Position numbers and translations under genes: made by a program
Notes under the pieces: generated by a model
Told to the model about the DNA's origin: nothing
Databases searched by the model: none
Seen by the model: the letters and a program-made list of their open reading frames with translations, nothing else
Part shown: piece after piece, positions 22,397 through 61,336 of the stretch
How positions within the stretch are numbered: the first letter of the stretch is position 1
How the letters are laid out: each line of letters starts with the position of its first letter
IMG/VR virus record: IMGVR_UViG_3300020474_000993
DNA length: 64,000 nucleotides
Direction: 5' to 3' (one strand)
From: a virus

Positions 22397-22425
22397 TTGA
22401 CTTTTGATTAACATTACTATACAAT
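22397..22425 (+). promoter_or_regulatory. sigma70 promoter for gp55 (TTGACT-17-TACAAT)
   Basis: Consensus spacing with an AT-rich upstream tract. Confidence 0.75.
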
Positions 22426-22435
22426 GGGTAACATT

Positions 22436-23041
22436 ATGACTAAGAAATCAGAAACAAATCGACATTATGTCAATAACAAGGAATTTTTGGCGGCGATGAC
22501 TGCATACCGCGAGTCGGTATTGGAAGCTGCGGAAAAGGGTAAACCTAAACCTCGCGTAACAGAATACATAGGCGAGTGCATGGTTAAGATTGCCAATCAC
22601 TTGGCATACAAATCAAATTTTGTCAACTATACTTTCAGAGAAGAAATGATTCTTGATGGTATAGAAAATTGTATTACATACATTGACAACTTCAATCCAG
22701 AGAAATCCAAGAATCCATTTGCATACTTTACGCAGATTACATACTATGCTTTTCTGAGAAGGATTCAAAAGGAAAAGAAACAACTTGACACTAAGTACAA
22801 GTATATTCAGAATCTTGACTTACAATCCATCCTAGATGGTGAAGAAGGACAGGGTGGTTCTGCTGAATTTGTGGAGTATATGAGGAAACAAATAGATGAC
22901 TCAGAGAAACATAAAGCTCAATACGCAGAACAAGATAAAAAGGTTCCCAAGAGGAGACCTAAGTATCTGGATGACAAGGCAGCTTTAGAGATGGCAAAAG
23001 AGAAAATACCCCAGTTGAAAGAAACTGAAAAAAGTTCTTGA
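22436..23041 (+). CDS. gp55: Late sigma factor gp55
   Basis: HYVNNKEF, NPFAYFTQI.YYAFLRRIQKEKKQ. Confidence 0.96.
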   Translation: MTKKSETNRHYVNNKEFLAAMTAYRESVLEAAEKGKPKPRVTEYIGECMVKIANHLAYKSNFVNYTFREEMILDGIENCITYIDNFNPEKSKNPFAYFTQITYYAFLRRIQKEKKQLDTKYKYIQNLDLQSILDGEEGQGGSAEFVEYMRKQIDDSEKHKAQYAEQDKKVPKRRPKYLDDKAALEMAKEKIPQLKETEKSS

Positions 23042-23066
23042 CTTCTGCCCTAAAACCATGTATACT
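23038..23066 (+). promoter_or_regulatory. sigma70 promoter (TTGACT-17-TATACT)
   Basis: Consensus; heads the denV-druA-grx-NTase-GT-gp47-gp46 unit. Confidence 0.75.
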
Positions 23067-23103: not shown

Positions 23104-23643
23104 ATGAATATATTTTATTTACATAAAACCCCTACCATATCAGTAAAAATGCATTGCGACAAACATGTCGTAAAGATGGTTATTGAGTATGCTCAGTTAT
23201 TATCTACTGCCCACAGAATGTTGGATGGTACACAATGGACTGATGCATCTAGTGGTAGGAGAATCAAACGGTGGCGACTAGACAATTCCAACATGGATGG
23301 TGTCTTGTACAAAGCGTCACATATCAATCACCCATCTGCCATATGGGTTCGTGAAAATCAGAAACAATATCAATACATGTATAACATGTTTGTTAACCTA
23401 TGTGACGAATACACATACAGGTATGGTAAGATACACATGACTGATTCCAAATTGCGTGACCTATTGTCTGAGTCACCAAGTAACATGGCACAGGGGTTGT
23501 TTCGAGAACCACCACAGTGTATGCCAGATTACTGTAAACAGTCCAACGCTCTTGATGGATACAGAACCTATTACAGAGAAGAGAAGAAGGGATTCGCTAA
23601 GTGGACTAAACGCGAAGTACCAGAGTTTATGAATGTCGCATGA
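23104..23643 (+). CDS. Pyrimidine-dimer DNA glycosylase (DenV-related family)
   Basis: MNIFYL...HCDKHVVKM..E.AQLLSTAH, H.NHPS..W. Confidence 0.75.
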   Translation: MNIFYLHKTPTISVKMHCDKHVVKMVIEYAQLLSTAHRMLDGTQWTDASSGRRIKRWRLDNSNMDGVLYKASHINHPSAIWVRENQKQYQYMYNMFVNLCDEYTYRYGKIHMTDSKLRDLLSESPSNMAQGLFREPPQCMPDYCKQSNALDGYRTYYREEKKGFAKWTKREVPEFMNVA

Positions 23644-24752
23644 TTTTATCCAAAGAAGATACCATATATGCAAGTAAAATAGTCGTAGATTACTTCTCAA
23701 AGTTTGAGAGGATTGACGATTACTTTCGTGCAAGAAAAATTGAAAGGGTGAAGGCTTTGCCTCCACCTCTTTTTGGTATGAGCGTAGAGGATGATATGTT
23801 TCAGAGTTGGGACATGCATCCAGAAGAAATGAATTTTGAAGTTGTTCAAATGAACAATGAGGTGTTTGACCAGATGTTAGAGATGACTGCATCTTTTTCA
23901 CCAGACCAAGCGCCAGGCAAAGAATTAAAACTGATTGTGAAGGAAACGAATACAAACACAGCAGTTGGTTTTATCAAGTTGGGTTCCCCTTTAATAAACT
24001 CCAAACCAAGGAATGATTTCCTTGGAGGGGTTCCCGACTTGCCTATCTTTAACAAGAGGGCAATCATGGGGTTTAATATAGTTCCAGTACAACCATTTGG
24101 ATTTAATTATCTAGGTGGTAAGTTACTGGCTGCAATTTGTTGTTCGCATGAAGTACGAAGGATGTTGAACAAGAAATATAATACAGAGTTCTGTTTGTTT
24201 GAGACTACATCTTTATATGGTAACATCAAGGGTGCTAGTATGTACGATGGTATGAAACCTTTTCTAAGATACAAGGGTGATACTATGTCATCGTTCTTAT
24301 TGACTATGGGTGAGGAAATTTACTTTCACCTACGCGATTGGTTTGAAGAGAAGAATGGTGGCGAAGTTCTTATTAAAAAAGATGCTTCCAGTAGAAAACT
24401 AAAATACCAAACAAAGATGATACAAGTTCTCAAGGCAAACTTAAAGGAACATGACACAAAAGCATTTGAAATGTTTGACGGTGTAATCAAGAAGTCAACC
24501 GATGTGACTACACAAAAAAGATTCTATATGTCAGAGTATGGTTATTCAAATACAAAAGATGTTCTTCTAGGTAAAACAGAACAGTTAGAAAAAGCAGAAA
24601 ACTTTGACAGGTTTGAACTAGAAAATGTTATTGATTGGTGGAGAAAGAAAGCCGTCAAAAGATATAGCAACTTGGTATCCGATGGAAGAATACGAAAGGA
24701 TTTGGAAGTCTGGAATTCTGAAACAATTAACAAAATAGATATAATAAGATGA
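23640..24752 (+). CDS. DruA/DUF4338-like protein
   Basis: PFGFNYLGGKLLA and ETTSLYG...S.Y motifs recalled from the DruA family. Confidence 0.65.
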   Translation: MILSKEDTIYASKIVVDYFSKFERIDDYFRARKIERVKALPPPLFGMSVEDDMFQSWDMHPEEMNFEVVQMNNEVFDQMLEMTASFSPDQAPGKELKLIVKETNTNTAVGFIKLGSPLINSKPRNDFLGGVPDLPIFNKRAIMGFNIVPVQPFGFNYLGGKLLAAICCSHEVRRMLNKKYNTEFCLFETTSLYGNIKGASMYDGMKPFLRYKGDTMSSFLLTMGEEIYFHLRDWFEEKNGGEVLIKKDASSRKLKYQTKMIQVLKANLKEHDTKAFEMFDGVIKKSTDVTTQKRFYMSEYGYSNTKDVLLGKTEQLEKAENFDRFELENVIDWWRKKAVKRYSNLVSDGRIRKDLEVWNSETINKIDIIR

Positions 24753-25000
24753 ACATAGAAATTTACTCAAAACCAGATTGTCCCTACTGTGACAGGGCAG
24801 TGCATATCGCACAACAAATTATCCAAGAAACAACACACATCAAGTACGAAAAGAAAATGTTAGATGAAGATTTTACATTTGAAGAACTACTTGAAAAATC
24901 ACCTAACGCGAGAACCTTTCCACAGATATTTGTGGACGGTGAATTGATTGGTGGATTCAATGACTTTGAAAAAATGGAGTGGTGGGCTGACAGACAATGA
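24749..25000 (+). CDS. Glutaredoxin
   Basis: CPYC, RTFPQIF, IGGF. Confidence 0.92.
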   Translation: MNIEIYSKPDCPYCDRAVHIAQQIIQETTHIKYEKKMLDEDFTFEELLEKSPNARTFPQIFVDGELIGGFNDFEKMEWWADRQ

Positions 25001-25395
25001 AAATAGGATTTACTTGTGGTGCATTTGATTTATTACATGCTGGACATGTAGTTATGCTTGAAGAAGCAAAAAACAACTGTGACTTTCTTATGGTGGGATT
25101 ACAAACAGACCCCACACTAGACAGGTCAGATAAAAACAAACCAGTACAAAGTATATACGAGCGATACATTCAGTTGTATGGTCTCAGATATGTTGATGAG
25201 GTTATCCCATACGACAGGGAAACTTGTTTGATGGATATCCTAACCACTAAAAGTATCGATGTTCGATTTATCGGTGAAGAGTATAAAGATGAGATGTTTA
25301 CAGGGAGTCATTTACCCATAGAGGTTTACTATACCAGTAGAGCACACACTTTCTCTTCTACAGATTTGAGGAAGAGAGTACAAAGGGCAAAGTAG
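24997..25395 (+). CDS. Glycerol-3-phosphate cytidylyltransferase-like NTase (TagD family)
   Basis: GAFDLLHAGH HIGH motif, VDEVIPY, R.H.FSST. Confidence 0.88.
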   Translation: MKIGFTCGAFDLLHAGHVVMLEEAKNNCDFLMVGLQTDPTLDRSDKNKPVQSIYERYIQLYGLRYVDEVIPYDRETCLMDILTTKSIDVRFIGEEYKDEMFTGSHLPIEVYYTSRAHTFSSTDLRKRVQRAK

Positions 25396-25396
25396 C

Positions 25397-26383
25397 ATGA
25401 AAATAACATGTGCAAGATTGAGGTCTAATGTAAAATACGAAGGCCCACTACAAACAGTATTGGATAGTTTTTTAGAGAACTATGTTAAATGGATGAGGGC
25501 AAACCCTCAACATGAGTATGGGACTTACAACATATCATTTGATGGCACAAGACCCAAGAGAACGCCAGAATCAATTGAATGGGCTGATGTAATAGTCATC
25601 CCCAGTGATAGTGAGTTTAGATATCATGGTGAGTTACAGATGAATCCCAAAGACTTGGCGAAGTCACAGTCTCACATGGACACTATCATTCCATTCTTCA
25701 AAGACAAACATGTTGTTGTGATGCGAAGTGATAGAGGTGACACGGAAAGACTATATAGAGAAGAGACATTGCAAAATGTCCCTATCAAATCTTACACAGA
25801 GATTGATGAGATTGATTTTTCTGGTAACATACATGGAATGAAGTATCACTTTATACGCAATAAGTTTGGTAATCCTTTATTTACTGAAGCTAAGAAGACT
25901 GACTTTGGTTATTGGGGTAGAATGAAAACAGGATGTGACCGCGATAAGATTATCAGAAAGATTTATCGTGACCCAGACTTGACCACCACTTTGATTGGTG
26001 GATTTCCGTCTGGTATTAAGAGACAATCCTCGTGGATAAAAGATTGGAATCAACTGTATCCTTTGTTAGAACCAAATAGATGGACACTTTGTTTTAACTG
26101 GAAGGATGAAACTGCTACTACATCTAGGTATGTAGAGGCACTTGCAATTGGTATGATACCTTTTGTTTGGAAACAATACGACAAGAATAATACATATAAC
26201 ATAGATGATTGGCAAAGAATTGAAGACTTTGATGACTTAAAATCTAAGGTAATGGATTTGAGAAATGAACATCTACTGTTAAGGAGATTAGAAGAATATA
26301 GAATGAATTATGGTAGAGTACTTTTGACACTGGATGAATACTACAATCAGTTTGCTGAAAGGATAGATGGAGCAACTGCATGA
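25397..26383 (+). CDS. DNA beta-glucosyltransferase-like GT-B enzyme
   Basis: KKTDFGYWGRMKTGCDR and TTSRYVEALA...YD align with T4 BGT as recalled (KKTLDVIYGGSFRSGQR; ITLRVWETMA...FD); sits in the T4 agt position before gp47. Confidence 0.65.
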   Translation: MKITCARLRSNVKYEGPLQTVLDSFLENYVKWMRANPQHEYGTYNISFDGTRPKRTPESIEWADVIVIPSDSEFRYHGELQMNPKDLAKSQSHMDTIIPFFKDKHVVVMRSDRGDTERLYREETLQNVPIKSYTEIDEIDFSGNIHGMKYHFIRNKFGNPLFTEAKKTDFGYWGRMKTGCDRDKIIRKIYRDPDLTTTLIGGFPSGIKRQSSWIKDWNQLYPLLEPNRWTLCFNWKDETATTSRYVEALAIGMIPFVWKQYDKNNTYNIDDWQRIEDFDDLKSKVMDLRNEHLLLRRLEEYRMNYGRVLLTLDEYYNQFAERIDGATA

Positions 26384-27432
26384 AGATAGCTTTAGTTAAT
26401 GATACACATTTTGGTGCGAGGTCAGACAGTTTGCCGTTTGATGCGTATTTTAGAAAATTTTACGATGAGTTTTTCTTCCCCACATTGGCGGAGAGAGAAA
26501 TTAAAACTGTTATGCACTTGGGTGATATCTTTGACAGAAGAAAGTATATGAATTACAACACACTCAAGAGTTGTAAGGAGTATTTCTTTGACCAAGCAAA
26601 AGACCTAAATATAGATATGCATGTGGTGCCAGGCAACCACGATACCTATTTTAAAAATACCAATGATGTTAACGCGCCAGAACTTTTATTACAAGAGTAT
26701 AAGAATGTCACTGTCCACCCAGAAATTACAGAGTTAGAATTCGATGGGAGAAAAATTTTATTTGTTCCTTGGATATGCAGTGATAATTACGAGTCTACTA
26801 TGGCGATGGTCAAAAGAACTGACGCAGAAGTATGTTTCGGACACTTTGAATTTGCTGGGTTCCAAATGTACAAAGGTCTTCCGAATGAGCATGGAATGGA
26901 TCATAATGCCTTTGAGCGCTTCGATTTGGTTTGTTCTGGTCATTACCATCACCGCAGTGCTAGGGATAATGTGGTCTATCTTGGTAATCCTTATGAAATT
27001 ACATGGTCTGATTTTAACGACAATAGAGGATTCAATATCTATGATACGGAGACTAATGAGTTAGAGTTTATGCAAAACCCATTTAGAATGTTTCACAAGA
27101 TATTCTATAATGATGTTGATGATGATGTTGAATATGATTTGACAAACCTAGTGGGTGGATGTGTAAAAGTTATTGTTGTAAAGAAAGAGAACTTTGGTAA
27201 GTTCGACAAACTAATTGACTCACTGTACAGTTGTAATTTGGTTGAGTTAAAAATTATAGAAGACTTTTCTGAGTTTGAAGACAATGCTGTTGGTGAGATG
27301 GATTTAAAATTAGATGATACAATTACTTTATTGAATGACTATGTTGACAATACTATTACTGATTTGGACAAAAGTAGACTCAAGACTTTATTACAATCCT
27401 TGTATGTAGAAGCTCAACACCACGAGAATTAA
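26380..27432 (+). CDS. gp47: Recombination endonuclease gp47 (Mre11-like)
   Basis: DTHFG, LGDIFDRR, GNHD, SGHYH. Confidence 0.96.
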   Translation: MKIALVNDTHFGARSDSLPFDAYFRKFYDEFFFPTLAEREIKTVMHLGDIFDRRKYMNYNTLKSCKEYFFDQAKDLNIDMHVVPGNHDTYFKNTNDVNAPELLLQEYKNVTVHPEITELEFDGRKILFVPWICSDNYESTMAMVKRTDAEVCFGHFEFAGFQMYKGLPNEHGMDHNAFERFDLVCSGHYHHRSARDNVVYLGNPYEITWSDFNDNRGFNIYDTETNELEFMQNPFRMFHKIFYNDVDDDVEYDLTNLVGGCVKVIVVKKENFGKFDKLIDSLYSCNLVELKIIEDFSEFEDNAVGEMDLKLDDTITLLNDYVDNTITDLDKSRLKTLLQSLYVEAQHHEN

Positions 27433-37188: not shown

Positions 37189-37358
37189 TGGCTTGGGTTG
37201 AAGGAATGATTGCCGTTTATGGAATGATATTATCTTTCATGGCGGGATGGTTAATGCCGAGAGGTAATTTTATTAGAAAATTTCAGTTGTGGTTAACCAA
37301 AAGAATATACAATTGGTTGGCTCATGAAAAAGAAAAGATTAAGGAGAAAAGTAAATGA
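37188..37358 (+). CDS. Small membrane protein, 56 aa (MAWVEGMIAVYGMILSFMAGWLMPRG...)
   Basis: TAATG and ATGA coupling on both sides. Confidence 0.6.
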   Translation: MAWVEGMIAVYGMILSFMAGWLMPRGNFIRKFQLWLTKRIYNWLAHEKEKIKEKSK

Positions 37359-37969
37359 AGATTGAAGTTGGTCAAAAGTTACCAGAAGACATCACTTTCC
37401 ACATGAGGGTAAGGGATGAAAAAATGGTAGAGGCTGGTGATGAAAATCCATATCAGTGGCAACTAGTTAACTCAAGTGACTTGTTCAAGGACAAGAGGGT
37501 TGTACTGTTTGCTTTGCCTGGCGCATTTACTCCAACATGTTCAACATATCAATTACCAGATTATGATAACAACTATGAGTTGTTCAAAAGAAATGGTATT
37601 GATGAAGTATACTGCCTGTCTGTTAATGATAGTTTTGTTATGAACAAATGGGGTGATTGGTTAGACATTGATAATGTAAAACTAATTCCAGATGGAAGTG
37701 GTTTCTTTACAGAAGCTATTGGTGCTTTGGTGAAGAAAGACAACTTAGGATTTGGGCCAAGGTCTTGGAGATATTCAGTCCTTGTCAATGATGGGGTTGT
37801 GGAAGTAGCATTTGTCGAGGAAGGATGTGAAGACGATTGTCCTGCTGACCCATATGAAGTATCTGACCCACTGACCATGATGAATTACATTCAAACTGAA
37901 AGTCCTGTAGGACAACAATATGAGTTAAATCTTCAAGATGGTGCTGGAACAGACGAAACATTTGCATAA
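37355..37969 (+). CDS. Peroxiredoxin (Prx5/type II)
   Basis: LPGAFTPTCS, SVNDSFVM, RSWRYS. Confidence 0.93.
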   Translation: MKIEVGQKLPEDITFHMRVRDEKMVEAGDENPYQWQLVNSSDLFKDKRVVLFALPGAFTPTCSTYQLPDYDNNYELFKRNGIDEVYCLSVNDSFVMNKWGDWLDIDNVKLIPDGSGFFTEAIGALVKKDNLGFGPRSWRYSVLVNDGVVEVAFVEEGCEDDCPADPYEVSDPLTMMNYIQTESPVGQQYELNLQDGAGTDETFA

Positions 37970-38753
37970 AGTTGATTATGATTTAAAACCTTTATCGAAG
38001 GAACTCGCAATCGATTTTATACAGACGCATCATTATTCACCGATGATGCCTAAACTAACAAAGCATTATCTAGGATGTTTTCTCAATGGTGAATTAGTAG
38101 GTGTATTGACTCTAGGCTGGGGAACTCAACCTAGACAGACAATCAATAAAATGTTTACTGGTCTGGAGTCAAAAGATTATTGGGAGATTGGTAAGATGTG
38201 CATGACAGATGAAATGCCAACCAACTCCGAATCACAAATGATATCTCAATCAATAAAATGGATAAAGGAAAATACACCAGAGGTATCGTTCCTTTATACA
38301 ATGGCAGATGGTATCATGGGTAAATGTGGATATGTATATCAGGCAAGTAATTTTCTTTATGGTGGACAATACTTCACTCAAGTATATGAGATAAATGGAG
38401 AGAAGGTTCATCCGAGAGCTACAAGAAAATTATGCGAAGAGAACGCAAGGTTCTCTGGCAAAGACAGGATTTTTTGGTTGACTTCAGACTTTATGAAAGA
38501 GAAGGGAATCAAAAAAATAGAGGGATATATGTTTAGATATATCTTTCCGCTGAATAAGAAGGCAAAAAAATTATTAAAAAAATCAAATATGGAATGGACT
38601 AGGGTATACCCCAAAGACCACAATCTAAAATGGTTTGACAAAACATCCAATCCGAAGTTTGAAATTGAACAACCCCACTTCACATATGAAGAAGTTCTAC
38701 ACAACGCGAGAAACATATCTGGTGGTGGGGCATCTTTAAGAGGTATATTATGA
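37938..38753 (+). CDS. Mom-like DNA adenine-modification enzyme (GNAT fold)
   Basis: HHYS, NSES..IS, TMADG...GYVYQASNFLY.G. Confidence 0.75.
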   Translation: MVLEQTKHLHKVDYDLKPLSKELAIDFIQTHHYSPMMPKLTKHYLGCFLNGELVGVLTLGWGTQPRQTINKMFTGLESKDYWEIGKMCMTDEMPTNSESQMISQSIKWIKENTPEVSFLYTMADGIMGKCGYVYQASNFLYGGQYFTQVYEINGEKVHPRATRKLCEENARFSGKDRIFWLTSDFMKEKGIKKIEGYMFRYIFPLNKKAKKLLKKSNMEWTRVYPKDHNLKWFDKTSNPKFEIEQPHFTYEEVLHNARNISGGGASLRGIL

Positions 38754-39517
38754 GCAAAATTGTTTTAGTATCTGGTGGATTTGACCCACTACATAAGGGA
38801 CACCTTGACCTATTGAAAGAAGCTAAGAAGATGGGTGACCATCTATCGGTAGGTCTCAATAGCGATGCGTGGTTAACTAGAAAGAAGGGGTCACCGTTCA
38901 TGTCACAATGGGACAGAATGGATATGTTGATGGAATTAGAATGTGTTGACCATGTAGTTCCTTTCAATGATGATGACGATACTGCCAAAGACTTTATAGA
39001 AAAAGCATTAGGCACATGGGGAATAGACCACAAGTTTTTATTTGTGAATGGTGGTGACAGGACAGAAGATAATATTCCAGAGATGGAACTGCGAGAAAAG
39101 TTTTCTCATGCTCATTTAGAATTTGTTTTTGGTGTTGGTGGAGATAAAACTTATTCTAGTAGTTTGGTAAACAATGTAGAAAGAGCTTGGGGTGACTATA
39201 AAGTTATTCACGAGGAACAAACTGCTAAGGTAAAAATATTGAATATTGATATTGGTAAAAGTATTAGTTACCAAAGACATTTTTATCGTGGAGAAATCTG
39301 GCATATCGTAAATGGTATGGCAATGATTAAAACCAGCAAAGGTAGGTTAGAGAATTATACATACGACTACTTGACTTCTGGTCAACACTTTAGTATAATA
39401 CCCTACGAATGGCATCAAGTGACAAATGTGGGTAATGAACCCCTAAAGATAATTGAAATTCAACATGGTTCTTATGTCGAAGAAGATGATATTGAACGCG
39501 AGGAGATAGTTCATTGA
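38750..39517 (+). CDS. Cytidylyl/adenylyltransferase (RfaE-like) fused to a mannose-6-P isomerase-type cupin
   Basis: GGFDPLHKGH, NGGDR; R.WG.Y, SYQRH..R.E.W, IIEIQ.G...EDDI.R. Confidence 0.85.
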   Translation: MSKIVLVSGGFDPLHKGHLDLLKEAKKMGDHLSVGLNSDAWLTRKKGSPFMSQWDRMDMLMELECVDHVVPFNDDDDTAKDFIEKALGTWGIDHKFLFVNGGDRTEDNIPEMELREKFSHAHLEFVFGVGGDKTYSSSLVNNVERAWGDYKVIHEEQTAKVKILNIDIGKSISYQRHFYRGEIWHIVNGMAMIKTSKGRLENYTYDYLTSGQHFSIIPYEWHQVTNVGNEPLKIIEIQHGSYVEEDDIEREEIVH

Positions 39518-39705
39518 AGAAGAAAGGTATTAAGGAAAGACGAATAGTCGCCTTAAAAAATTTGGAGAAGTCAAAGTTTACCCCAAAACAGGTAAAGTCT
39601 GGCAAGTTTGTAAAAGGTAAGCCTGAGATGGTAGACCGTTCTGAAGACAACTGGAACATCAAAAAAGATTACCAGATTGAGGTGCTTAAGAAAAGAGTAC
39701 AGTAA
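39514..39705 (+). CDS. Small basic hypothetical protein
   Basis: Coupled start and stop; Lys-rich. Confidence 0.55.
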   Translation: MKKKGIKERRIVALKNLEKSKFTPKQVKSGKFVKGKPEMVDRSEDNWNIKKDYQIEVLKKRVQ

Positions 39706-39707
39706 TC

Positions 39708-41441
39708 ATGTTTGATTACAATCTAATAGATGAATATCAGATTGAGGTTACTACTTACTGTAACGCCGCTTGTCCTCAATGTCCGAGGAATGTAAACGGT
39801 GGTAAGACTAATCCCTATCTACCAGTTTGTCATTTAGATAGAGATGTAATAGATGTTGCATTTCCTAAGTCCCTAGTAAAGAGACTGAGACAGGTTTTCT
39901 TTTGTGGCAGTTATGGTGACCCTATTATGCATCCAGAGTTCTTGGATATACTCAAGGATTTTAGGAGTAAAAACCCAACTCTGCATCTCTACCTTCACAC
40001 TAACGGAGGAGTCCGTGATATTAAATGGTGGGAAGAGATTGCTGAAGTGCTGGGTGACCATGGCAAAATTGATTTTGGTATTGATGGAATATGGGATACC
40101 AATCATCTTTACCGAAGAAATGTAGATTTTTCTCGCGTGATTGAAAACGCGAAAGCATTTATAAATGCTGGTGGAAAAGCACAATGGAACTATCTGGTAT
40201 ACAAACACAATGAACACCAGATATCAGAAGCAAAAAAGATGTCTGAAGAACTGGGGTTTGATGATATACTGTTTAGGTCAACTGGTAGGTTTATGAACCA
40301 CAAAACTCTTACTGAGTTAGAAAAGTGGCCAGTGCAAAACAGAGATGGTGAAATAGAATATTATTTAGAACCACCCACAGACAAACAGTACCACAATAGT
40401 AGTGTTGAGAATCTACCCAGACTACATGAAGAGTATCCAGATATAAAGGATTACTTCAACGAGACCAAAATAAAATGTGACGCTCTCACTGGAAAGAAAG
40501 TGGCAATTACTGCCGAAGGTTTAGTCTTACCATGTAATTTCTTTGAACACAATCTTTACGACATGAGATTTCATAAAAGAGATTCATTTCCTAGTAGTAA
40601 TGATTATCACTTTGATGAAGATGGCAATAACCAAGTTATGTCTCTTATCAATAGACATAATGGTGATGACCAGAATTTAAACATTCACAGTCAACCATTA
40701 GATAAAATTTTTAAAAGTGAGTTTTGGAAAGAGATTGTATGGTCATGGGAACAAGATATAGGGTGTGGCAAAATATTTGAGTGCGCTATGACTTGTGGAC
40801 AGAAGTTAACTAAAGTATGGGATCAAAATAAAAAGATGAAAGAAACTTATCGATATTATATCACAGGTAACAATCGCGGATTGGGACTAGACTTAGCAAA
40901 ACATTTTAATGGTGATGGATGTTCCAGAAGTACTGGCCAGATGCTTACTGATATTACAACTAAGGTTGGTATTCAAAGAATAGTAGAACAAAGTTTACAC
41001 TATGATGTGTTTATCAATAATGCATTTGATGGCCCGCCAGATGAACCTTGGGGTAATTTCGCTCAAGTAAATTTATTGTTAGCGGTATTTAAGGCATGGA
41101 AAGAAGAAAACAAGTCTGGATATATTTTTAATATCGGAAGTACTGGGGCATTAAGTGCCAGAGTTAGTCATGACAGATATGCAATTGCTAAGGACGCCCT
41201 TGCTACCGCGAGTAGACAATGTTCCAAGGCATTTAAAGATGACCTAGTTAAATTTAAAACTACCTTGATTACGCCAGGCAGATTGGACACACCATTGAGT
41301 AGAGGTAGAGAAACATGGACAGGCAACGGTGTGAAAACGCTTGACATTTGCAAGTTTATAGAGTATACTATGGGCATAGAAAATAATAGTATAATTGAAG
41401 ACATCATTATTGATGTTAATTTGGAGTATGGTAATGAGTGA
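39708..41441 (+). CDS. Radical SAM/SPASM(twitch) enzyme fused to a C-terminal SDR oxidoreductase
   Basis: CNAACPQC, GDP, HTNG; C...PC...C...CG auxiliary cluster; ITGNNRGLG, FINNA, YAIAK. Confidence 0.85.
   Translation: MFDYNLIDEYQIEVTTYCNAACPQCPRNVNGGKTNPYLPVCHLDRDVIDVAFPKSLVKRLRQVFFCGSYGDPIMHPEFLDILKDFRSKNPTLHLYLHTNGGVRDIKWWEEIAEVLGDHGKIDFGIDGIWDTNHLYRRNVDFSRVIENAKAFINAGGKAQWNYLVYKHNEHQISEAKKMSEELGFDDILFRSTGRFMNHKTLTELEKWPVQNRDGEIEYYLEPPTDKQYHNSSVENLPRLHEEYPDIKDYFNETKIKCDALTGKKVAITAEGLVLPCNFFEHNLYDMRFHKRDSFPSSNDYHFDEDGNNQVMSLINRHNGDDQNLNIHSQPLDKIFKSEFWKEIVWSWEQDIGCGKIFECAMTCGQKLTKVWDQNKKMKETYRYYITGNNRGLGLDLAKHFNGDGCSRSTGQMLTDITTKVGIQRIVEQSLHYDVFINNAFDGPPDEPWGNFAQVNLLLAVFKAWKEENKSGYIFNIGSTGALSARVSHDRYAIAKDALATASRQCSKAFKDDLVKFKTTLITPGRLDTPLSRGRETWTGNGVKTLDICKFIEYTMGIENNSIIEDIIIDVNLEYGNE
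41341..41369 (+). promoter_or_regulatory. Internal sigma70 promoter for gp44 (TTGACA-17-TATACT)
   Basis: Near-perfect consensus inside the 3' end of the rSAM-SDR gene. Confidence 0.7.
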
Positions 41442-55615: not shown

Positions 55616-56869
55616 ATGGTCGGATTTTTATCATATCTAAACGAAGATGCACAGGGCAAGAACCTACATCTTGAACACCTAGAAGACGAAATATTAAATT
55701 TCGGAATAGGTGGAGCTCGTGGTGCAATTAATTTCTTACAGGCATTGAGAGATATGTTGTCGGGAAGTTCTCGTTCATCCGTAAATATGACAGTTAAATG
55801 GGACGGTGCTCCTGCTATATTTGCTGGTATTGACCCCAGTGATGGTAAATTTTTTGTTGCTAAGAAAGGTGTATTCAATAAGACACCACTATTATATAAG
55901 TCCACACAAGAAATAAACAAAGACAGTAAATTGCCACAGGCATTAAAACCCGCCTTTACAATCGCGTTACAAGAATTTAGCAAACTCGGCATCAAGAGTG
56001 TATTACAGGGTGACTTAATGTTTACACAGGCATCTCTTGAATCTGAAACTATAGATGGTGAGAGGTACACCACATTCCAACCAAACACTATAGTCTATGC
56101 TATTCCAAAGATGTCAGAACTGGAACAAAGAATTAAAGCTGCTAAGATTGGTGTTGTTTGGCACACATCATATACAGGTAACACATTAGAAGGTATGAAG
56201 GCATCTTTTGGTGTAAACATTAGTAGTCTTAGAAAATCAAGAAGTGTCTGGATGGATGATGCTAGTTATAGAGATACTAGTGGAACTTCTACATTTACGC
56301 AAACAGAGACATCTGCTGTTACTACAAAACTATCCGAGTGTGGTAGAATATTTAAGAAAATAAATTCAGCACAATTAAACAATTTCTTAAAATTTCAAAA
56401 TGGGTTTTCTGGAAAAATGGTTGGCGCCAATATCAAAACCTATAATAATTCAAAAGTAAAGGTTGGTGCGAAGATAACTAATGTCTCTGGCCATGTGTCT
56501 GGATACGCAAAGTGGGTAGAAGACAAATTTGATACAGAGATAAATAAGTTAAAAACGGAACAGTCACAGAAAAAACTAGAGATAAAAAAGAAAGAAACTT
56601 TAAGGGAACTAAATCAATATACTGCTCTTCTTATAAATGTTATCAATTTTCAGAACTCTATGGTAGATGCTAAAATGATAATTGTTAGTAAACTAAATAG
56701 AGTAAAACAGTTGATGGATACTTTTGTCAGAACTAAACAAGGATTTAAAGTTACAAATCCAGAAGGATATGTTGCAATCGATAGGGTGTCTGGTAATGCT
56801 GTTAAACTGGTAGACAGAATGGAATTTAGTTATAATAACTTTACTGCAATTAAGGCGTGGGATAGATGA
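55616..56869 (+). CDS. DUF6267-like protein with ATP-dependent ligase/NTase motifs
   Basis: NLHLEHLED, KWDG, QGDLMF, EGYV, VKLV; late promoter at 55577-55584. Confidence 0.7.
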   Translation: MVGFLSYLNEDAQGKNLHLEHLEDEILNFGIGGARGAINFLQALRDMLSGSSRSSVNMTVKWDGAPAIFAGIDPSDGKFFVAKKGVFNKTPLLYKSTQEINKDSKLPQALKPAFTIALQEFSKLGIKSVLQGDLMFTQASLESETIDGERYTTFQPNTIVYAIPKMSELEQRIKAAKIGVVWHTSYTGNTLEGMKASFGVNISSLRKSRSVWMDDASYRDTSGTSTFTQTETSAVTTKLSECGRIFKKINSAQLNNFLKFQNGFSGKMVGANIKTYNNSKVKVGAKITNVSGHVSGYAKWVEDKFDTEINKLKTEQSQKKLEIKKKETLRELNQYTALLINVINFQNSMVDAKMIIVSKLNRVKQLMDTFVRTKQGFKVTNPEGYVAIDRVSGNAVKLVDRMEFSYNNFTAIKAWDR

Positions 56870-58990: not shown

Positions 58991-61336
58991 ATGGAAAAGA
59001 CTTTTGCAGACTTTGTAGACATACCAGAGCTTGAAGAAGGTGTCAATGACCCTGCCATTTTCAAGGCAATTTTCCTTGCCGGCGGGCCTGGGTCTGGTAA
59101 GTCTTTCATGGTTGGACAAACAGGTCTAACTGGATTGGGTTTCAAGATAGTCAACTCCGACCAACAATTTGAAATCGCCTTAAAAAAAGCAGGATTAACT
59201 CAAAAACCAGAAGACATATTCTCAACAAAAGGTCAATCTCTCAGAGACCGAGCTAAATTACTCACTGGAAAAAAACAAGATGGATATCTTGGTGGTAGAC
59301 TTGGATTAGTCATTGATGGTACTGGTAGAGAGTACGACAAAATCTCAAAACAAAAAACAGAACTAGAAAAACTGGGATATGAAACTGCCATGATAATGGT
59401 AAATACATCCCTACAAACTGCTGTTGGCAGAGACCAAGCAAGAGACAGGACATTGGGTAAGGCCGCTATCACTCCAATGTGGAAAGCGGTTCAGACAAAC
59501 ATTGGTAAATTTTCAAACCTTTTTAAACAAAATATGTACATCGTAGATAATTCGGATGGTGCAGATTTTAAAAGAGGTGCATTGTCTGTATATAGAAGTC
59601 TTATGTCTTGGTCAAAGAGACCACCTCAAGACAGGCGGGCAAAAGCATGGATTAAAAACGAAAAACAAAAACGCAATATCAAAGAAGAAAAAAAGAACTG
59701 TGGATGTGGACAAGACCCTTGTATCACATATGGCAAAAAAGAATTAAAACAAAAAATTAAAGAAGAATTACCACCGCATTTAAAAAGACATTTCGATAAG
59801 AAAGGAAATGTAGTACAGGGTACATGGAAAGATGGTAAGTGGAGTCCGAACAAGAAACAACCAAAAATCAAGACCACTATCAGAGATGTGACACCAAAAG
59901 GATATGGCCCAACCGAAGATATCAAGAACATGGATATGGGTGATGTAATCACAGATTTCTATAATAGTGATGCACCTCAGTTCAAAGGTAAATCTAAAAA
60001 GAAACGCAGAGAGATGGCGATTGCCGCTAAACTTTCTACTGAAGGAGTTTTTGACAGGGATTCTAAATCAAACTCTTTTAACAGAACTAAGTCTAAAACC
60101 ACAAAAGTAAAAATGGGTACTAAGGGTGGTAAACCAGTATACGGAAAATCTACCACACCTCAAGGATTCCCAAAACTATCAGAAGATTTAAGAAAGTGGT
60201 TTGGTAAAGGTAAGAAGGGGGATTGGATTCGCGTAGGCACAGACGGTGACATCAAGGGAGATTGTGCAAGAGAGCCTGGCGAGGGTAAACCGAAGTGTAT
60301 GCCTAGAGACAAAGCACACAGTATGTCTAAAAAAGACAGGGCGACATCTGCCAGAAGGAAACGCAGAGAAGACCCAGTTGCAGATAGAAAAGGTAAAGGT
60401 GGAAAACCAGTAATGGTTAAAACCGATGTCAAAGAAGATGTTCAAATTAGTAGGTACGAATGGGGTAGACCAGATGGTACTGCTTATATGAAAGCGCTGA
60501 CGCCTGGCGAGCCTGGTAAGACAACTAAAAAGAACAGGTCTAACGGAAACAAGAAACATTACAAGGCAGTAATGGAAGCAGGAGATAAAGAAGAATTAAA
60601 ATCAATATCATCTGCAACTCATGACCAAATGCATAAAGATGTAGATGGGACTCAAGATGACTTTGAAGGAATCATTACTCTTGATACTATGGATAATGAT
60701 TGGACTGCAATATTCACAGAACCAGAAATAGAAGCGATTGAACACGAAGTTGATGAACTTTCATTTGAAGATATGATGGGTCTGGGGATGTATGACAAAG
60801 AAGAATTAGAAGACTTTGAAGCATTTGACCAAGATATAGATTGGCATGATGATATACAAATAACTGAGGTTCTATCTATTCAAGGTAGAATGAAAAGGCG
60901 ATTCGCTGCTAGGAGAAATAGACAAAAACTTAAAGTTGCTCGTATGAGGGCATCAAGAAGGGCTGCTGACCCTGCTAGGTTGAAGAAGCGTGCTACTCGT
61001 GGTGCGAGGAATATGCTTAAGAATAGGATTGCTAGGGGTAGGGATTTAACTGCATTGCCACCCGCTGAGAAGGCTCGTATTGAAGGTATGGTAATGAGAT
61101 TTTCTGGATTAGTATCTAGGATTGCTCAGAGAATGATACCTATTGTTCGTAGGAATGAGATGAAAAGATTGAAATCTGGGTCAAGACAGAAATCACAAAA
61201 GGCGAAGAAGTATAATCCTAAGAAAGCATTAGCTTCTGCTTCAAAACAGAAGGGTAAAAAGTTTAAAGCAAGTAAGAAAACCTTTGCTAAACCAAAATTA
61301 GCAAGTAAACCAAAGGCGGCAACAAAAACGAAATGA
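58991..61336 (+). CDS. Multidomain late protein: P-loop kinase (zeta-toxin/PNK-like) plus several small modules
   Basis: AGGPGSGKS, VNSD, IDGTG; late promoter at 58975-58982. Confidence 0.75.
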   Translation: MEKTFADFVDIPELEEGVNDPAIFKAIFLAGGPGSGKSFMVGQTGLTGLGFKIVNSDQQFEIALKKAGLTQKPEDIFSTKGQSLRDRAKLLTGKKQDGYLGGRLGLVIDGTGREYDKISKQKTELEKLGYETAMIMVNTSLQTAVGRDQARDRTLGKAAITPMWKAVQTNIGKFSNLFKQNMYIVDNSDGADFKRGALSVYRSLMSWSKRPPQDRRAKAWIKNEKQKRNIKEEKKNCGCGQDPCITYGKKELKQKIKEELPPHLKRHFDKKGNVVQGTWKDGKWSPNKKQPKIKTTIRDVTPKGYGPTEDIKNMDMGDVITDFYNSDAPQFKGKSKKKRREMAIAAKLSTEGVFDRDSKSNSFNRTKSKTTKVKMGTKGGKPVYGKSTTPQGFPKLSEDLRKWFGKGKKGDWIRVGTDGDIKGDCAREPGEGKPKCMPRDKAHSMSKKDRATSARRKRREDPVADRKGKGGKPVMVKTDVKEDVQISRYEWGRPDGTAYMKALTPGEPGKTTKKNRSNGNKKHYKAVMEAGDKEELKSISSATHDQMHKDVDGTQDDFEGIITLDTMDNDWTAIFTEPEIEAIEHEVDELSFEDMMGLGMYDKEELEDFEAFDQDIDWHDDIQITEVLSIQGRMKRRFAARRNRQKLKVARMRASRRAADPARLKKRATRGARNMLKNRIARGRDLTALPPAEKARIEGMVMRFSGLVSRIAQRMIPIVRRNEMKRLKSGSRQKSQKAKKYNPKKALASASKQKGKKFKASKKTFAKPKLASKPKAATKTK

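What the first reader, a model, noticed from the sequence alone, without database searches (positions are those of the whole stretch)
23104..26383. Candidate DNA hypermodification cassette: DenV-like, DruA-like, Grx, CDP-transferase and BGT-like genes in the T4 agt slot
Seen: five tightly coupled genes under one promoter between gp55 and gp47. Established: T4 keeps its alpha-glucosyltransferase here, BGT glycosylates hmC, and TagD-type enzymes make CDP-polyols. Inference: the BGT-like enzyme may use an unusual donor made by the adjacent NTase, giving an undescribed base adduct.
Basis: partly seen in the sequence, partly recalled or inferred. Interest (0 to 1): 0.75.

Follow-up and report, generated by a model that had tools for sequence, protein, structure and literature searches.

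The report
Marine phage BGT-like glycosyltransferase module
An uncultured ocean T4-like phage carries, where T4 keeps its DNA alpha-glucosyltransferase, a true distant relative of T4's DNA glucosyltransferases; it always travels with a DruA-type acyltransferase but has no hydroxymethylcytosine to act on, which points to an undescribed decoration of phage DNA.

Summary
Observation confirmed. Five co-oriented, overlapping genes (23104-26383) lie between gp55 and gp47, the slot where T4 has a-gt.

The key claim holds. The 328-aa ORF5 model (pLDDT 94) is a GT-B enzyme whose best matches among solved structures are T4 BGT (Z 19.0) and AGT (Z 17.1). The family profile hits BGT (E 1e-3 and 1e-4), and the donor-phosphate residues are conserved.

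The five-gene cassette is not the functional unit. In 40 well-flanked relatives:
- ORF2, a DruA/DUF4338 GNAT-fold protein, is the constant partner (38/40, in several genomic contexts).
- The cytidylyltransferase is optional (22/40); other clades carry a TAGT second glycosyltransferase instead.
- Grx (6/40) and the weakly DenV-like ORF1 look like bystanders.

Near-complete relatives lack dCMP hydroxymethylase, TET/JBP, C5-methylase and TGT, so hmC is unlikely to be the acceptor.

Best reading (about 0.5): a DNA glycosylation pathway that does not start from hmC. ORF2 would prepare the acceptor and ORF5 decorate it, with a phage-made donor in this lineage. Extreme restriction-site purging argues against genome-wide modification.

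The scan found this module before on other genomes, with concordant follow-ups. I found no published description.

The parts
22424..23041 (+). gp55 late sigma factor (upstream boundary marker, not part of the module)
   Evidence: phrog_234, E 2e-61; 85% nucleotide identity to S-RIM2 gp55
23038..23066 (+). sigma-70-like promoter candidate, TTGACT-17-TATACT
   Evidence: 10/12 match in the only intergenic gap upstream of ORF1. Such sites are no more frequent here than in shuffled sequence, so this is suggestive only.
23104..23643 (+). ORF1, 179 aa, phrog_624 'DNA binding protein'. Possibly a very distant pyrimidine-dimer-glycosylase relative. A variable neighbour and probably not a core part.
   Evidence: phrog_624, E 4e-51. 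No Pfam hit at E<=10. hhalign against T4 DenV gives E 0.26. Nearest atlas clusters carry PF03013 on about 30% of members. Present near ORF5 in 17/40 loci, and allele-swapped in close relatives.
23640..24752 (+). ORF2, 370 aa, DruA/DUF4338-family GNAT-fold protein with helical N- and C-terminal extensions. The constant partner of the GT.
   Evidence: PF14236, 31.9 bits. phrog_19197, E 2e-150. AF2 pLDDT 89.3. GNAT fold, with Mu Mom the top VIA match at Z 9.8 but tied with generic GNATs. Within 4 kb of ORF5 in 38/40 loci.
24749..25000 (+). ORF3, 83 aa, dithiol glutaredoxin (CPYC). A facultative insert.
   Evidence: PF00462, E 6e-13. CPYC motif in the translation. Present only in the closest clade, 6/40 loci. 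Absent from L006-L008.
24997..25395 (+). ORF4, 132 aa, cytidylyltransferase-like nucleotidyltransferase (TagD/ECT/RfaE-II group). Candidate donor-activating enzyme.
   Evidence: PF01467, 57.5 bits. Below the equivalog cut-offs of both TagD and RfaE-II. Best PDB relatives are ECT (1.6e-19) and TagD (1.5e-14, full length). HxGH motif at H14/H17. Adjacent to ORF5 in 22/40 loci.
25397..26383 (+). ORF5, 328 aa, GT-B glycosyltransferase of the T4 alpha-/beta-glucosyltransferase clade. No Pfam, PHROG or NCBIfam family.
   Evidence: AF2 pLDDT 94.4, pTM 0.92. VIA-align: T4 BGT Z 19.0, AGT Z 17.1, next 14.8. Foldseek top 11 are all AGT/BGT. Profile against PDB hits BGT at E 1.1e-3. hhalign E 1.4e-4 over 162 columns. 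Conserved G174, K177, R182, R244, E247 and an always-acidic position 112.
26380..27432 (+). gp47 SbcD-like nuclease subunit (downstream boundary marker; overlaps ORF5 by 4 nt)
   Evidence: phrog_100, E 9e-107; PF12850/PF00149

Best explanation
The core of this locus is a two-gene module: ORF2, a DruA/DUF4338 GNAT-fold acyltransferase-like protein, and ORF5, a GT-B transferase from the same structural clade as T4 alpha- and beta-glucosyltransferase.

The module most likely decorates the phage's own DNA after replication, on an acceptor that is not 5-hydroxymethylcytosine.

Proposed order of events (inferred, not shown):
1. ORF2 acts first and makes or exposes the acceptor group on DNA.
2. ORF5 then flips out that base as BGT/AGT do, and transfers a sugar (or a phospho-alcohol) from a nucleotide-activated donor. 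The always-acidic residue at position 112 would be the catalytic base, with K177/R182/R244/E247 holding the donor diphosphate.
3. In this lineage the donor is supplied by the translationally coupled cytidylyltransferase-like ORF4. In other lineages ORF4 is missing, a host NDP-sugar is presumably used, and a TAGT or GT1-family enzyme adds a second sugar.

The glutaredoxin and ORF1 are neighbours rather than parts of the pathway.

The modification is probably partial or sequence-context-specific rather than genome-wide.
For: Shown:
- ORF5's best matches among 48,161 PDB representatives are T4 BGT (Z 19.0, 288 of 328 residues aligned) and T4 AGT (Z 17.1). Generic GT-B enzymes start at 14.8. Foldseek ranks only AGT/BGT in its top 11.
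- The family profile finds BGT as the only significant PDB sequence hit (E 1.1e-3). hhalign gives E 1.4e-4 across the whole donor domain.
- BGT G188/R191/R269/E272 align with G174/K177/R244/E247, which are invariant or nearly so. R182 is invariant next to the BGT R195 position. Position 112 is D or E in 43/43 sequences.
- ORF2 lies within 4 kb of ORF5 in 38/40 well-flanked loci, in several distinct genomic contexts: the gp55-gp47 slot, directly after DNA polymerase, an islet inside the structural module, and after gp46 in HTVC008M.
- In other lineages the gene right after ORF5 is a TAGT (PF20691, 56-57 bits). This is the family of the T2/T6 enzyme that adds a second glucose to glucosyl-hmC, and most phages with an alpha- or beta-GT also carry it (PMC13216743).
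- One family member is fused to ParB-N and N6/N4 DNA methylase domains.
- In cyanophages ORF2 homologues sit between the clamp-loader genes gp44 and gp62.
- ORF5 occupies the T4 a-gt position.

Asymmetry that supports the proposed order: ORF2 homologues occur in 31 annotated phage records and over 5,600 protein clusters. ORF5 occurs in 2 records and 914 clusters and almost never without ORF2.

Precedent for a phage-supplied activated sugar beside a candidate DNA GT: Shewanella phage Thanatos (PMC12838424).
Against: - Everything is in silico. No DNA chemistry has been measured.
- No acceptor is identified. Relatives lack the ThyA/dCMP-hydroxymethylase family, TET/JBP, C5-methylase and TGT. Mom is present in only 3 of 5 relatives and absent from HTVC008M.
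- ORF2 is only generically GNAT. Mom is the top VIA hit (Z 9.8) but within 1 Z unit of ordinary acetyltransferases. There is no sequence-profile similarity to this phage's own Mom (E 0.24).
- The window purges restriction sites to an extreme degree: ACGT 0 against about 70 expected, GATC 16 against 255, GGWCC 0 against about 49. That is not expected if the DNA were globally protected.
- ORF4's closest annotated phage homologues stand alone without any GT, and ORF4 is missing from G004.
- A shared fold does not prove a shared substrate.
- The 40 loci are phylogenetically related, so they are not 40 independent observations.
Confidence: 0.5

Rival explanations
1. Non-DNA target. ORF5 glycosylates a protein, lipid, glycan or small molecule, such as a virion protein or host envelope component. 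ORF2 is an ordinary N-acyltransferase and ORF4 an NDP-sugar or CDP-alcohol synthase, so the locus is an auxiliary glycan-metabolism module that happens to share the BGT fold.
For: No hydroxymethyl-pyrimidine route in relatives. Strong restriction-site avoidance suggests exposed DNA. GT-B enzymes act on very diverse acceptors, and many score Z 12-15. GNAT plus nucleotidyltransferase plus GT is a typical sugar-pathway set. Earlier unchecked notes report other glycan islands in this genome.
Against: BGT and AGT stand 2-4 Z units above all non-DNA GT-B enzymes, and BGT is the only sequence-profile hit. The module associates with TAGT, a family tied to DNA base glycosylation. One member is fused to a DNA methylase. 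The module is embedded in replication and recombination modules and sits in the a-gt slot. ORF2 homologues sit between the clamp-loader subunits.
Confidence: 0.25
2. Same DNA target but reversed roles. ORF5 glycosylates DNA directly, and ORF2 tailors the attached or activated sugar (for example N-acylation of an amino sugar) rather than making the acceptor.
For: GNAT enzymes commonly N-acylate amino sugars. ORF2, ORF4 and ORF5 are translationally coupled. The GNAT fold is generic.
Against: ORF2 homologues are about six times more numerous than ORF5 homologues and occur in many cyanophages with no ORF5, inside the replisome module. ORF2 therefore has a function that does not need ORF5's product. 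ORF5, in contrast, almost never occurs without ORF2.
Confidence: 0.12
3. Classical T4-type pathway. The acceptor is hmC (or hmU) made by an unrecognised or host enzyme, and ORF5 is simply a divergent hmC glucosyltransferase.
For: Fold and donor-site residues match BGT. The gene is in the a-gt slot. TAGT partners occur in other clades.
Against: No PF00303-family gene in HTVC008M or in five relatives, three of them at least 90% complete. No C5-methylase. No TET/JBP, although that search also found nothing in the control genomes. Massive restriction-site purging is unlike hmC phages. ORF5 does not match Pfam PF09198 or PF11440 even at E<=10.
Confidence: 0.07
4. Chance neighbourhood. The genes are unrelated accessory genes collected in a hyperplastic region between gp55 and gp47, with no shared pathway.
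For: True for part of the cassette. Grx is present in 6/40 and ORF1 in 17/40 loci. ORF1 alleles are swapped among near-identical relatives. In HTVC008M the closest homologues of ORF1 and ORF2 are scattered. Homing-endonuclease-like genes shuffle this region.
Against: The ORF2-ORF5 linkage survives relocation to several unrelated genomic contexts, often with overlapping stop and start codons. ORF4 accompanies the pair in three different arrangements.
Confidence: 0.06

Closest known systems
Phage T4 beta-glucosyltransferase (BGT; CAZy GT63; Pfam PF09198; PDB 1bgt, 1c3j, 1j39)
   Same: Best structural match (Z 19.0, rmsd 3.7, 288 residues aligned). Only significant PDB sequence-profile hit. The donor-phosphate residues (BGT G188, R191, R269, E272) have conserved counterparts. 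An acidic residue lies at the end of the strand that carries BGT Asp100.
   Different: No match to PF09198 even at E<=10. About 14-16% identity. The BGT Tyr261 segment is deleted. There is no hmC pathway in carriers. The enzyme is constantly linked to a GNAT-fold gene and often to a cytidylyltransferase, neither of which T4 has.
Phage T4 alpha-glucosyltransferase (AGT; CAZy GT72; Pfam PF11440; PDB 1xv5, 1y6f)
   Same: Second-best structural match (Z 17.1; Foldseek rank 1, E 2e-7). Same genome position immediately upstream of gene 47. Similar acidic-to-neutral pI (6.1 against 6.7).
   Different: No sequence-level match. ORF5 is 70 residues shorter. Different partners, and no hmC.
T2/T6-type two-step DNA glycosylation (alpha- or beta-GT plus TAGT, PF20691; PMC13216743)
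   Same: In sister clades the ORF5 homologue is followed directly by a TAGT gene (56-57 bits). This is the same primary-GT-plus-TAGT layout.
   Different: This window has no TAGT. It has ORF4 instead, and ORF4 and TAGT never co-occur in the 60-row tree. The acceptor cannot be glucosyl-hmC.
Phage Mu Mom (PF25680; PDB 8bv8), a GNAT-fold enzyme that hypermodifies adenine
   Same: Top VIA-align match of ORF2 (Z 9.8, 168 residues aligned). A GNAT fold used on DNA is the working analogy for ORF2. One depositor annotated a cyanophage ORF2 homologue as 'methylcarbamoylase mom'.
   Different: No Pfam Mom hit and no profile similarity to the true Mom of this same phage (E 0.24). ORF2 is 100 residues longer, with helical extensions. 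Mom co-occurs in only 3 of 5 relatives.
DruA of type I Druantia (PF14236/DUF4338)
   Same: ORF2 passes the Pfam gathering threshold (31.9 against 27). The HTVC008M paralogue scores 65.6 bits. DUF4338 is described as a GNAT domain that is also fused to DndF (PMC10853773).
   Different: Only profile positions 53-181 of 297 match. ORF2 is phage-encoded with no DruB-E genes nearby. DruA's own function is unknown.
Phage-supplied activated sugars for DNA glycosylation (Shewanella phage Thanatos UDP-xylose pyrophosphorylase TH1_063; PMC12838424)
   Same: A phage nucleotidyltransferase is encoded beside a candidate DNA glycosyltransferase in a T4-like phage.
   Different: Thanatos has a dCMP hydroxymethylase, and its enzyme is a UDP-sugar pyrophosphorylase of another fold. 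ORF4 is a TagD/ECT-type cytidylyltransferase, so it may make a CDP-alcohol rather than an NDP-sugar.
TagD glycerol-3-phosphate cytidylyltransferase (TIGR01518; PDB 1coz)
   Same: Same size. Full-length alignment (E 1.5e-14). HxGH at the same positions. Partial RTxGISTT-like C-terminal motif.
   Different: 68 bits against an equivalog cut-off of 165. It scores equally with RfaE domain II (71 bits against a cut-off of 181.5) and better with ethanolamine-phosphate cytidylyltransferase. The substrate is undetermined.

Membership tests
T4 beta-glucosyltransferase family (GT63 / PF09198) | Match to the family HMM PF09198 | tested here: not met
   No PF09198 hit for ORF5 at E<=0.01 or at E<=10.
T4 beta-glucosyltransferase family (GT63 / PF09198) | GT-B two-domain fold closest to BGT | tested here: met
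   VIA-align Z 19.0, rmsd 3.7, 288 aligned; rank 1 of 48,161. Foldseek TM 0.66.
T4 beta-glucosyltransferase family (GT63 / PF09198) | Donor diphosphate and ribose ligands (BGT R191, R195, R269, E272) | tested here: met
   hhalign maps R191->K177 (K/R in 40/43), R269->R244 (42/43) and E272->E247 (43/43). R182 (43/43) lies one position from R195. The roles of the BGT residues are from my own memory of the BGT structures, not checked in a paper here.
T4 beta-glucosyltransferase family (GT63 / PF09198) | Catalytic base Asp100 at the end of an N-domain strand | tested here: inconclusive
   By strand register, BGT YYLFTD100IR corresponds to ORF5 VVVMRSD112R. That column is D36/E7 of 43. No residue-level structural superposition was available.
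T4 beta-glucosyltransferase family (GT63 / PF09198) | hmC-containing DNA available as acceptor (dCMP hydroxymethylase gp42) | tested here: not met
   No PF00303-family gene in HTVC008M or in five related records of 137-166 kb, three at least 90% complete. The window's own full genome could not be searched.
T4 beta-glucosyltransferase family (GT63 / PF09198) | UDP-glucose as donor; beta-glucosyl product on DNA | not testable with these tools
   Needs an enzyme assay and LC-MS.
T4 alpha-glucosyltransferase family (GT72 / PF11440) | HMM match, AGT-like fold, and position upstream of gene 47 | tested here: inconclusive
   No Pfam hit. Fold Z 17.1, second to BGT. The genomic position is the same as T4 a-gt.
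DruA / DUF4338 (PF14236) | Score above the Pfam gathering threshold | tested here: met
   ORF2 scores 31.9 bits against 27. Only positions 53-181 of 297 are covered. Most homologues carry a precomputed PF14236 hit.
DruA / DUF4338 (PF14236) | Part of a Druantia type I operon (DruB-E with the DruE helicase) | tested here: not met
   The neighbours are gp55, Grx, the cytidylyltransferase, the GT and gp47. There are no Druantia genes in the window region or in 80 related loci.
Mom family (PF25680) | HMM or profile similarity to Mom | tested here: not met
   ORF2 has no PF25680 hit. hhalign of the ORF2 family against the window's true Mom gives E 0.24.
Mom family (PF25680) | Mom-like GNAT fold | tested here: inconclusive
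   Mom 8bv8 is VIA rank 1 (Z 9.8), but generic GNATs score 9.3-7.8. It is Foldseek rank 43.
Glycerol-3-phosphate cytidylyltransferase TagD (TIGR01518) | Equivalog-level HMM score | tested here: not met
   68 bits against a cut-off of 165.4. RfaE domain II scores 71.3 against 181.5.
Cytidylyltransferase-like superfamily (PF01467) | HMM match and HxGH nucleotide-binding motif | tested here: met
   57.5 bits against 21. GAFDLLHAGH with H14/H17.
Glutaredoxin (PF00462) | HMM match and CxxC active site | tested here: met
   49.2 bits against 22.9. CPYC at residues 11-14.
T4 endonuclease V / pyrimidine dimer glycosylase (PF03013) | HMM or profile similarity to DenV | tested here: not met
   ORF1 has no PF03013 hit at E<=10. 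hhalign against T4 DenV gives E 0.26. The profile finds nothing in the PDB. The only support is indirect: atlas neighbour clusters carry PF03013 on about 30% of members, and some depositors use that name.

The most novel reading that the evidence does not exclude
A new two-step DNA hypermodification that starts from an ordinary base. A DruA/DUF4338 GNAT-fold enzyme working at the replication fork installs an acyl-type handle on DNA. A third branch of the T4 alpha/beta-glucosyltransferase clade then attaches a sugar or polyol-phosphate from a phage-made CDP/NDP donor. As a corollary, bacterial DruA of type I Druantia would be a DNA-modifying (self-marking) enzyme. The pathway would be widespread in abundant ocean myoviruses, including cultured Pelagibacter phage HTVC008M.
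Probability: 0.3. Interest if true: 0.9.

Novelty: new variant of a known kind. Interest (0 to 1): 0.72.

Why it matters
DNA glycosylation by phages is known only on hydroxymethyl-pyrimidines. Here a large family of ocean T4-like phages carries a real relative of the T4 DNA glucosyltransferases. The family has over 900 protein clusters at 90% identity, and its GNAT partner has over 5,600. These phages have no visible way to make hmC or hmU.

If the target is DNA, this defines a new acceptor chemistry and a third branch of the alpha/beta-GT clade. It would also assign a first function to the DUF4338/DruA domain, which in turn suggests what DruA does in Druantia. New DNA-modifying and DNA-labelling enzymes could follow.

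The question can be tested directly, because one carrier (HTVC008M) is in culture and the genes are small and can be expressed.

If the target is not DNA, the result still matters. It would show that the BGT/AGT fold clade is not restricted to DNA.

Tried and rejected
- The window's whole genome is not held, so hmC-pathway genes could only be sought in relatives. Metagenome loci L002 and L004 were also not searchable.
- An alignment-based scan of viral contigs failed because no conserved 7-10-column stretch was found. I repeated it with the single protein.
- Single-sequence phmmer of ORF1, ORF2 and ORF5 against the PDB gave only noise.
- Pfam at E<=10 gave only spurious hits: Vac_ImportDeg for ORF5 and iHD-CE for ORF1.
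- The multi-stretch hits P0184 and P0257, which first suggested an internal repeat in ORF5, are low-complexity artefacts. P0184 matches many unrelated Pfam families with zero significant stretches.
- Searching a Druantia paper for 'DruA' matched only the word 'Druantia' and gave no functional information.
- ORF2 as a Mom family member: rejected at sequence level.
- ORF1 as DenV: not supported.
- Mom or deazaguanine (TGT/DpdA) as supplier of the acceptor: Mom is absent from two near-complete carriers and from HTVC008M, and TGT is absent from all five relatives.
- Neighbourhoods of the closest annotated ORF4 homologues in Vibrio, Caulobacter and Acinetobacter phages were uninformative. They are stand-alone genes.
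- pI as an argument against DNA binding: dropped, because T4 AGT itself has pI 6.1.
- The recurring ~400-aa unknown genes beside the module are homing-endonuclease-like, not pathway enzymes.
- The BFVD search with the ORF2 model gave mostly uncharacterised proteins.
- The genome-contig scan found only two MAG contigs that are probably mis-binned phage DNA.

Full report
WHAT IS THERE

The window is part of an uncultured marine T4-like myovirus. The nearest nucleotide hits are Synechococcus phage gp55 genes at 85% identity. At the protein level the closest cultured relative for these genes is Pelagibacter phage HTVC008M.

On the + strand the gene order is uvsW, a 139-aa ORF, gp55 (22424-23041), five ORFs, then gp47, gp46 and the deformylase gene. 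They are joined by three 4-nt overlaps and one 1-nt gap. The chain does not end there: ORF5 overlaps gp47 by 4 nt, and the coupling runs on through gp46 into def.

The only intergenic gap upstream holds a 10/12 sigma-70-like site (TTGACT-17-TATACT, 23038-23066). Such sites are no commoner in the region than in shuffled sequence, so the single-promoter statement is plausible but unproven. T4's own map confirms the slot claim, with the order 55 ... mobB - a-gt - 47.1 - 47 - 46.

THE INDIVIDUAL GENES

- ORF3 is a standard dithiol glutaredoxin (PF00462, CPYC motif).
- ORF4 is a 132-aa member of the cytidylyltransferase-like superfamily with an intact HxGH motif. It falls below the equivalog cut-offs of both TagD and RfaE domain II. 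Its best solved relatives make CDP-alcohols: ethanolamine-phosphate cytidylyltransferase (E 1.6e-19) and TagD (E 1.5e-14, full length). Its substrate is open.
- ORF2 passes the Pfam threshold for DruA/DUF4338 (31.9 bits against 27). The Aravind laboratory describes that domain as a GNAT fold (PMC10853773).
- ORF1 belongs to phrog_624, named 'DNA binding protein'. The DenV label was not confirmed. There is no PF03013 hit even at E<=10, hhalign against T4 DenV gives E 0.26, and the profile finds nothing in the PDB. The only support is indirect.
- ORF5 has no Pfam, PHROG or NCBIfam family.

ORF5 IS A REAL RELATIVE OF THE T4 DNA GLUCOSYLTRANSFERASES

I built a 43-sequence alignment from an exhaustive representative search (146 representatives).

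- The alignment gave an AlphaFold2 model with pLDDT 94.4 and pTM 0.92.
- Foldseek against the PDB put only T4 AGT and T4 BGT in its top eleven (E 2e-7 to 5e-6; TM 0.66 to BGT).
- An independent all-against-all aligner ranked T4 BGT first (Z 19.0, rmsd 3.7, 288 of 328 residues aligned) and T4 AGT second (Z 17.1). Generic GT-B enzymes started at Z 14.8.
- The family profile hit BGT as the only significant PDB sequence (E 1.1e-3).
- hhalign against T4's own BGT aligned the whole donor-binding domain (E 1.4e-4, 162 columns).

In that alignment BGT G188, R191, R269 and E272 fall on G174 (invariant), K177 (K or R in 40/43), R244 (42/43) and E247 (invariant). An invariant R182 lies one position from BGT R195.

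In the N-domain the strand that ends in BGT's Asp100 (YYLFTD100IR) corresponds by register to VVVMRSD112R. Position 112 is D or E in all 43 sequences. That mapping was made by eye, because no residue-level superposition was available.

THE FUNCTIONAL UNIT IS ORF2 PLUS ORF5, NOT FIVE GENES

I fetched 80 viral contigs that encode ORF5 relatives of 64-100% identity and mapped the window's genes onto them. Forty loci have at least 3 kb on both sides of ORF5. Genes found within 4 kb of ORF5:

| Gene | Loci (of 40) |
|---|---|
| ORF2 (DruA-like) | 38 |
| ORF4 (cytidylyltransferase) | 22 |
| ORF1 | 17 |
| gp47 | 16 |
| DNA polymerase | 13 |
| TAGT | 10 |
| Grx | 6 |

The ORF2-ORF5 pair persists in unrelated positions:
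- the gp55-gp47 slot;
- directly after DNA polymerase;
- a plus-strand islet between tail-tube and major-capsid genes;
- in HTVC008M after gp46, as GT, a JmjC-like cupin, then a second DruA-family gene at 65.6 bits.

Close relatives L006-L008 have the same order as the window but no Grx. A tree of 60 ORF5 sequences shows that the gp47-slot clade is monophyletic and carries ORF4. Elsewhere ORF4-bearing and TAGT-bearing clades alternate, and the two genes never occur in one locus. The 148-kb G004 record (84% complete, TAGT type) has no ORF4 homologue at all.

These loci are related to one another, so the counts are not independent events. The several distinct genomic contexts are the stronger argument.

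EVIDENCE THAT THE TARGET IS DNA

1. The structural and profile kinship described above.
2. In sister clades the gene directly after ORF5 is a TAGT (PF20691, 56-57 bits). A 2026 NAR paper identifies this family as the T2/T6 enzyme that adds a second glucose to glucosyl-hmC, and reports that most phages with an alpha- or beta-GT also carry a TAGT (PMC13216743).
3. One family member is a single ORF fused to ParB-N and N6/N4 DNA-methylase domains.
4. The module sits in recombination or replication modules. In the cyanophages S-SSM7 and S-SCSM2R the ORF2 homologue lies between the clamp-loader genes gp44 and gp62, with an ORF1-like gene just upstream.
5. DUF4338 domains occur in DNA-directed defence proteins (DruA, DndF).

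WHAT THE ACCEPTOR IS NOT

HTVC008M and five related records of 137-166 kb (three at least 90% complete) have no ThyA/dCMP-hydroxymethylase-family gene, no C5 DNA methylase and no TGT/DpdA. They also have no TET/JBP hit, although that search was silent in the control genomes too. Mom (PF25680) is present in this window at 37938-38753 (201 bits). It is present in only three of the five relatives and absent from HTVC008M. ORF2 is therefore the only constant partner.

There is also an asymmetry. ORF2 homologues occur in 31 annotated phage records and over 5,600 clusters, whereas ORF5 occurs in two records and 914 clusters and almost never without ORF2. This is the pattern expected if ORF2 acts first and ORF5 decorates its product, much as glucosyltransferases depend on gp42 in T-even phages. 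That order is an inference.

ORF2

The AF2 model (pLDDT 89.3) has a GNAT core (about residues 60-310) with helical N- and C-terminal extensions. VIA-align ranks phage Mu Mom first (Z 9.8, 168 residues aligned), but ordinary acetyltransferases follow within one Z unit. Foldseek prefers malonyl-CoA decarboxylase and N-acetyltransferases. There is no profile similarity to this phage's true Mom (E 0.24). So ORF2 may work like Mom, as a GNAT fold acting on DNA, but it is not a Mom family member. The Mom analogy rests mainly on context.

EVIDENCE AGAINST, AND LIMITS

The window purges restriction sites to an extreme degree:
- ACGT: 0, against about 70 expected by a Markov model;
- GATC: 16 against 255;
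- CCGG: 10 against 45;
- GGWCC: 0 against about 49 expected from base composition;
- several 6-mer palindromes: 0.

A genome with wholesale base replacement would not need this. Any modification is therefore likely to be partial or context-specific, or the target is not DNA.

The closest annotated ORF4 homologues in other phages stand alone, with no GT nearby. This weakens the donor-supply link. The pI of ORF5 (6.7) is uninformative, because T4 AGT has pI 6.1. Nothing here measures chemistry.

COMPARISON WITH WHAT IS KNOWN, AND NOVELTY

ORF5 works like BGT/AGT in fold and donor site, but it fails the sequence-family tests for GT63/PF09198 and GT72/PF11440, and no hmC substrate is available. 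It is best described as a third branch of that clade.

Phage-supplied activated sugars for DNA glycosylation have a precedent in Shewanella phage Thanatos (PMC12838424), but that phage has a hydroxymethylase and a different nucleotidyltransferase fold.

Full-text searches for DUF4338, for cyanophage DNA glucosyltransferases and for TAGT found no description of this module.

The scan itself met the same family on other genomes. Follow-up reports there (e1-5659680, e1-5659692, e1-5783793) reached the same reading independently. I saw those notes only after my own fold, linkage and hmC-pathway tests.

VERDICT

The most likely explanation (about 0.5) is a DNA glycosylation module that does not start from hmC. 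Its core is the DruA-like GNAT plus the BGT/AGT-clade transferase, with ORF4 as a lineage-specific donor supplier and with Grx and ORF1 as bystanders.

Noticed in passing
window 1-64000: Extreme avoidance of short palindromes. ACGT 0 (about 70 expected by Markov model, 214 by base composition), GATC 16 (255), CCGG 10 (45), GGACC/GGTCC 0 (about 49). ACGCGT, CTGCAG, TCGCGA and TCTAGA are all 0.
   Followed up: partly
window 37355-41441: A second accessory island splits gp45 from gp44. It holds a peroxiredoxin, a true Mom (PF25680, 201 bits), a cytidylyltransferase fused to a mannose-6-P-isomerase-type cupin (35% identical to ORF4 over 147 aa), and a radical-SAM/SDR fusion. Mom lies within 4 kb of the ORF5 homologue in 4 of 40 related loci.
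   Followed up: partly
L002:9009-10247, L043:8790-10001, L061:3662-4933: A family of ~400-aa proteins recurs beside or inside the ORF2-ORF5 module. They are 28% identical to one another, and their N-termini match homing-endonuclease phrog_314 (E down to 5e-13). This echoes T4, where the homing endonuclease mobB sits beside a-gt, and may explain how the module moves.
   Followed up: partly
L090:5651-8077: An 808-aa ORF fuses an ORF5-like domain to ParB-N and N6/N4 DNA-methylase domains. It is followed by an Asp/Arg-hydroxylase-family 2OG oxygenase. It was seen on a single 13-kb contig.
   Followed up: partly
L001:6001-8711 (Pelagibacter phage HTVC008M gp104-gp106): The only cultured carrier has GT, a JmjC-like cupin, then a second DruA-family gene directly after gp46, plus another DruA-like copy next to DNA polymerase. 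A 2OG-Fe(II) oxygenase gene splits gp47 from gp46.
   Followed up: partly
L012:4932-5399 and L022:7431-7898 against window 23104-23643: ORF1 is allele-swapped. In relatives whose flanking genes are 89-97% identical to the window, ORF1 is only 54-57% identical. This indicates cassette-like replacement of that one gene.
   Followed up: no
L053:7962-9389: A 475-aa gene between ORF2 and ORF5 in one lineage has a sub-threshold match to the N-terminal domain of GmrSD, a restriction enzyme that targets glucosylated hmC DNA (25 bits against a cut-off of 33; also phrog_2598).
   Followed up: no
window 58991-61336 and 55616-56869: A 781-aa protein has a weak zeta-toxin-like P-loop kinase region (E 1e-5). 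A 417-aa protein is a full-length DUF6267 member (337 bits). Both lie in the replication-proximal region and have unknown roles.
   Followed up: no
L098, L099: ORF5 relatives (67% and 56% identity) lie on contigs binned into marine MAGs labelled Gammaproteobacteria SP335 and Candidatus Pelagibacter TMED203. These are probably mis-binned phage contigs and give at most a weak host hint.
   Followed up: no
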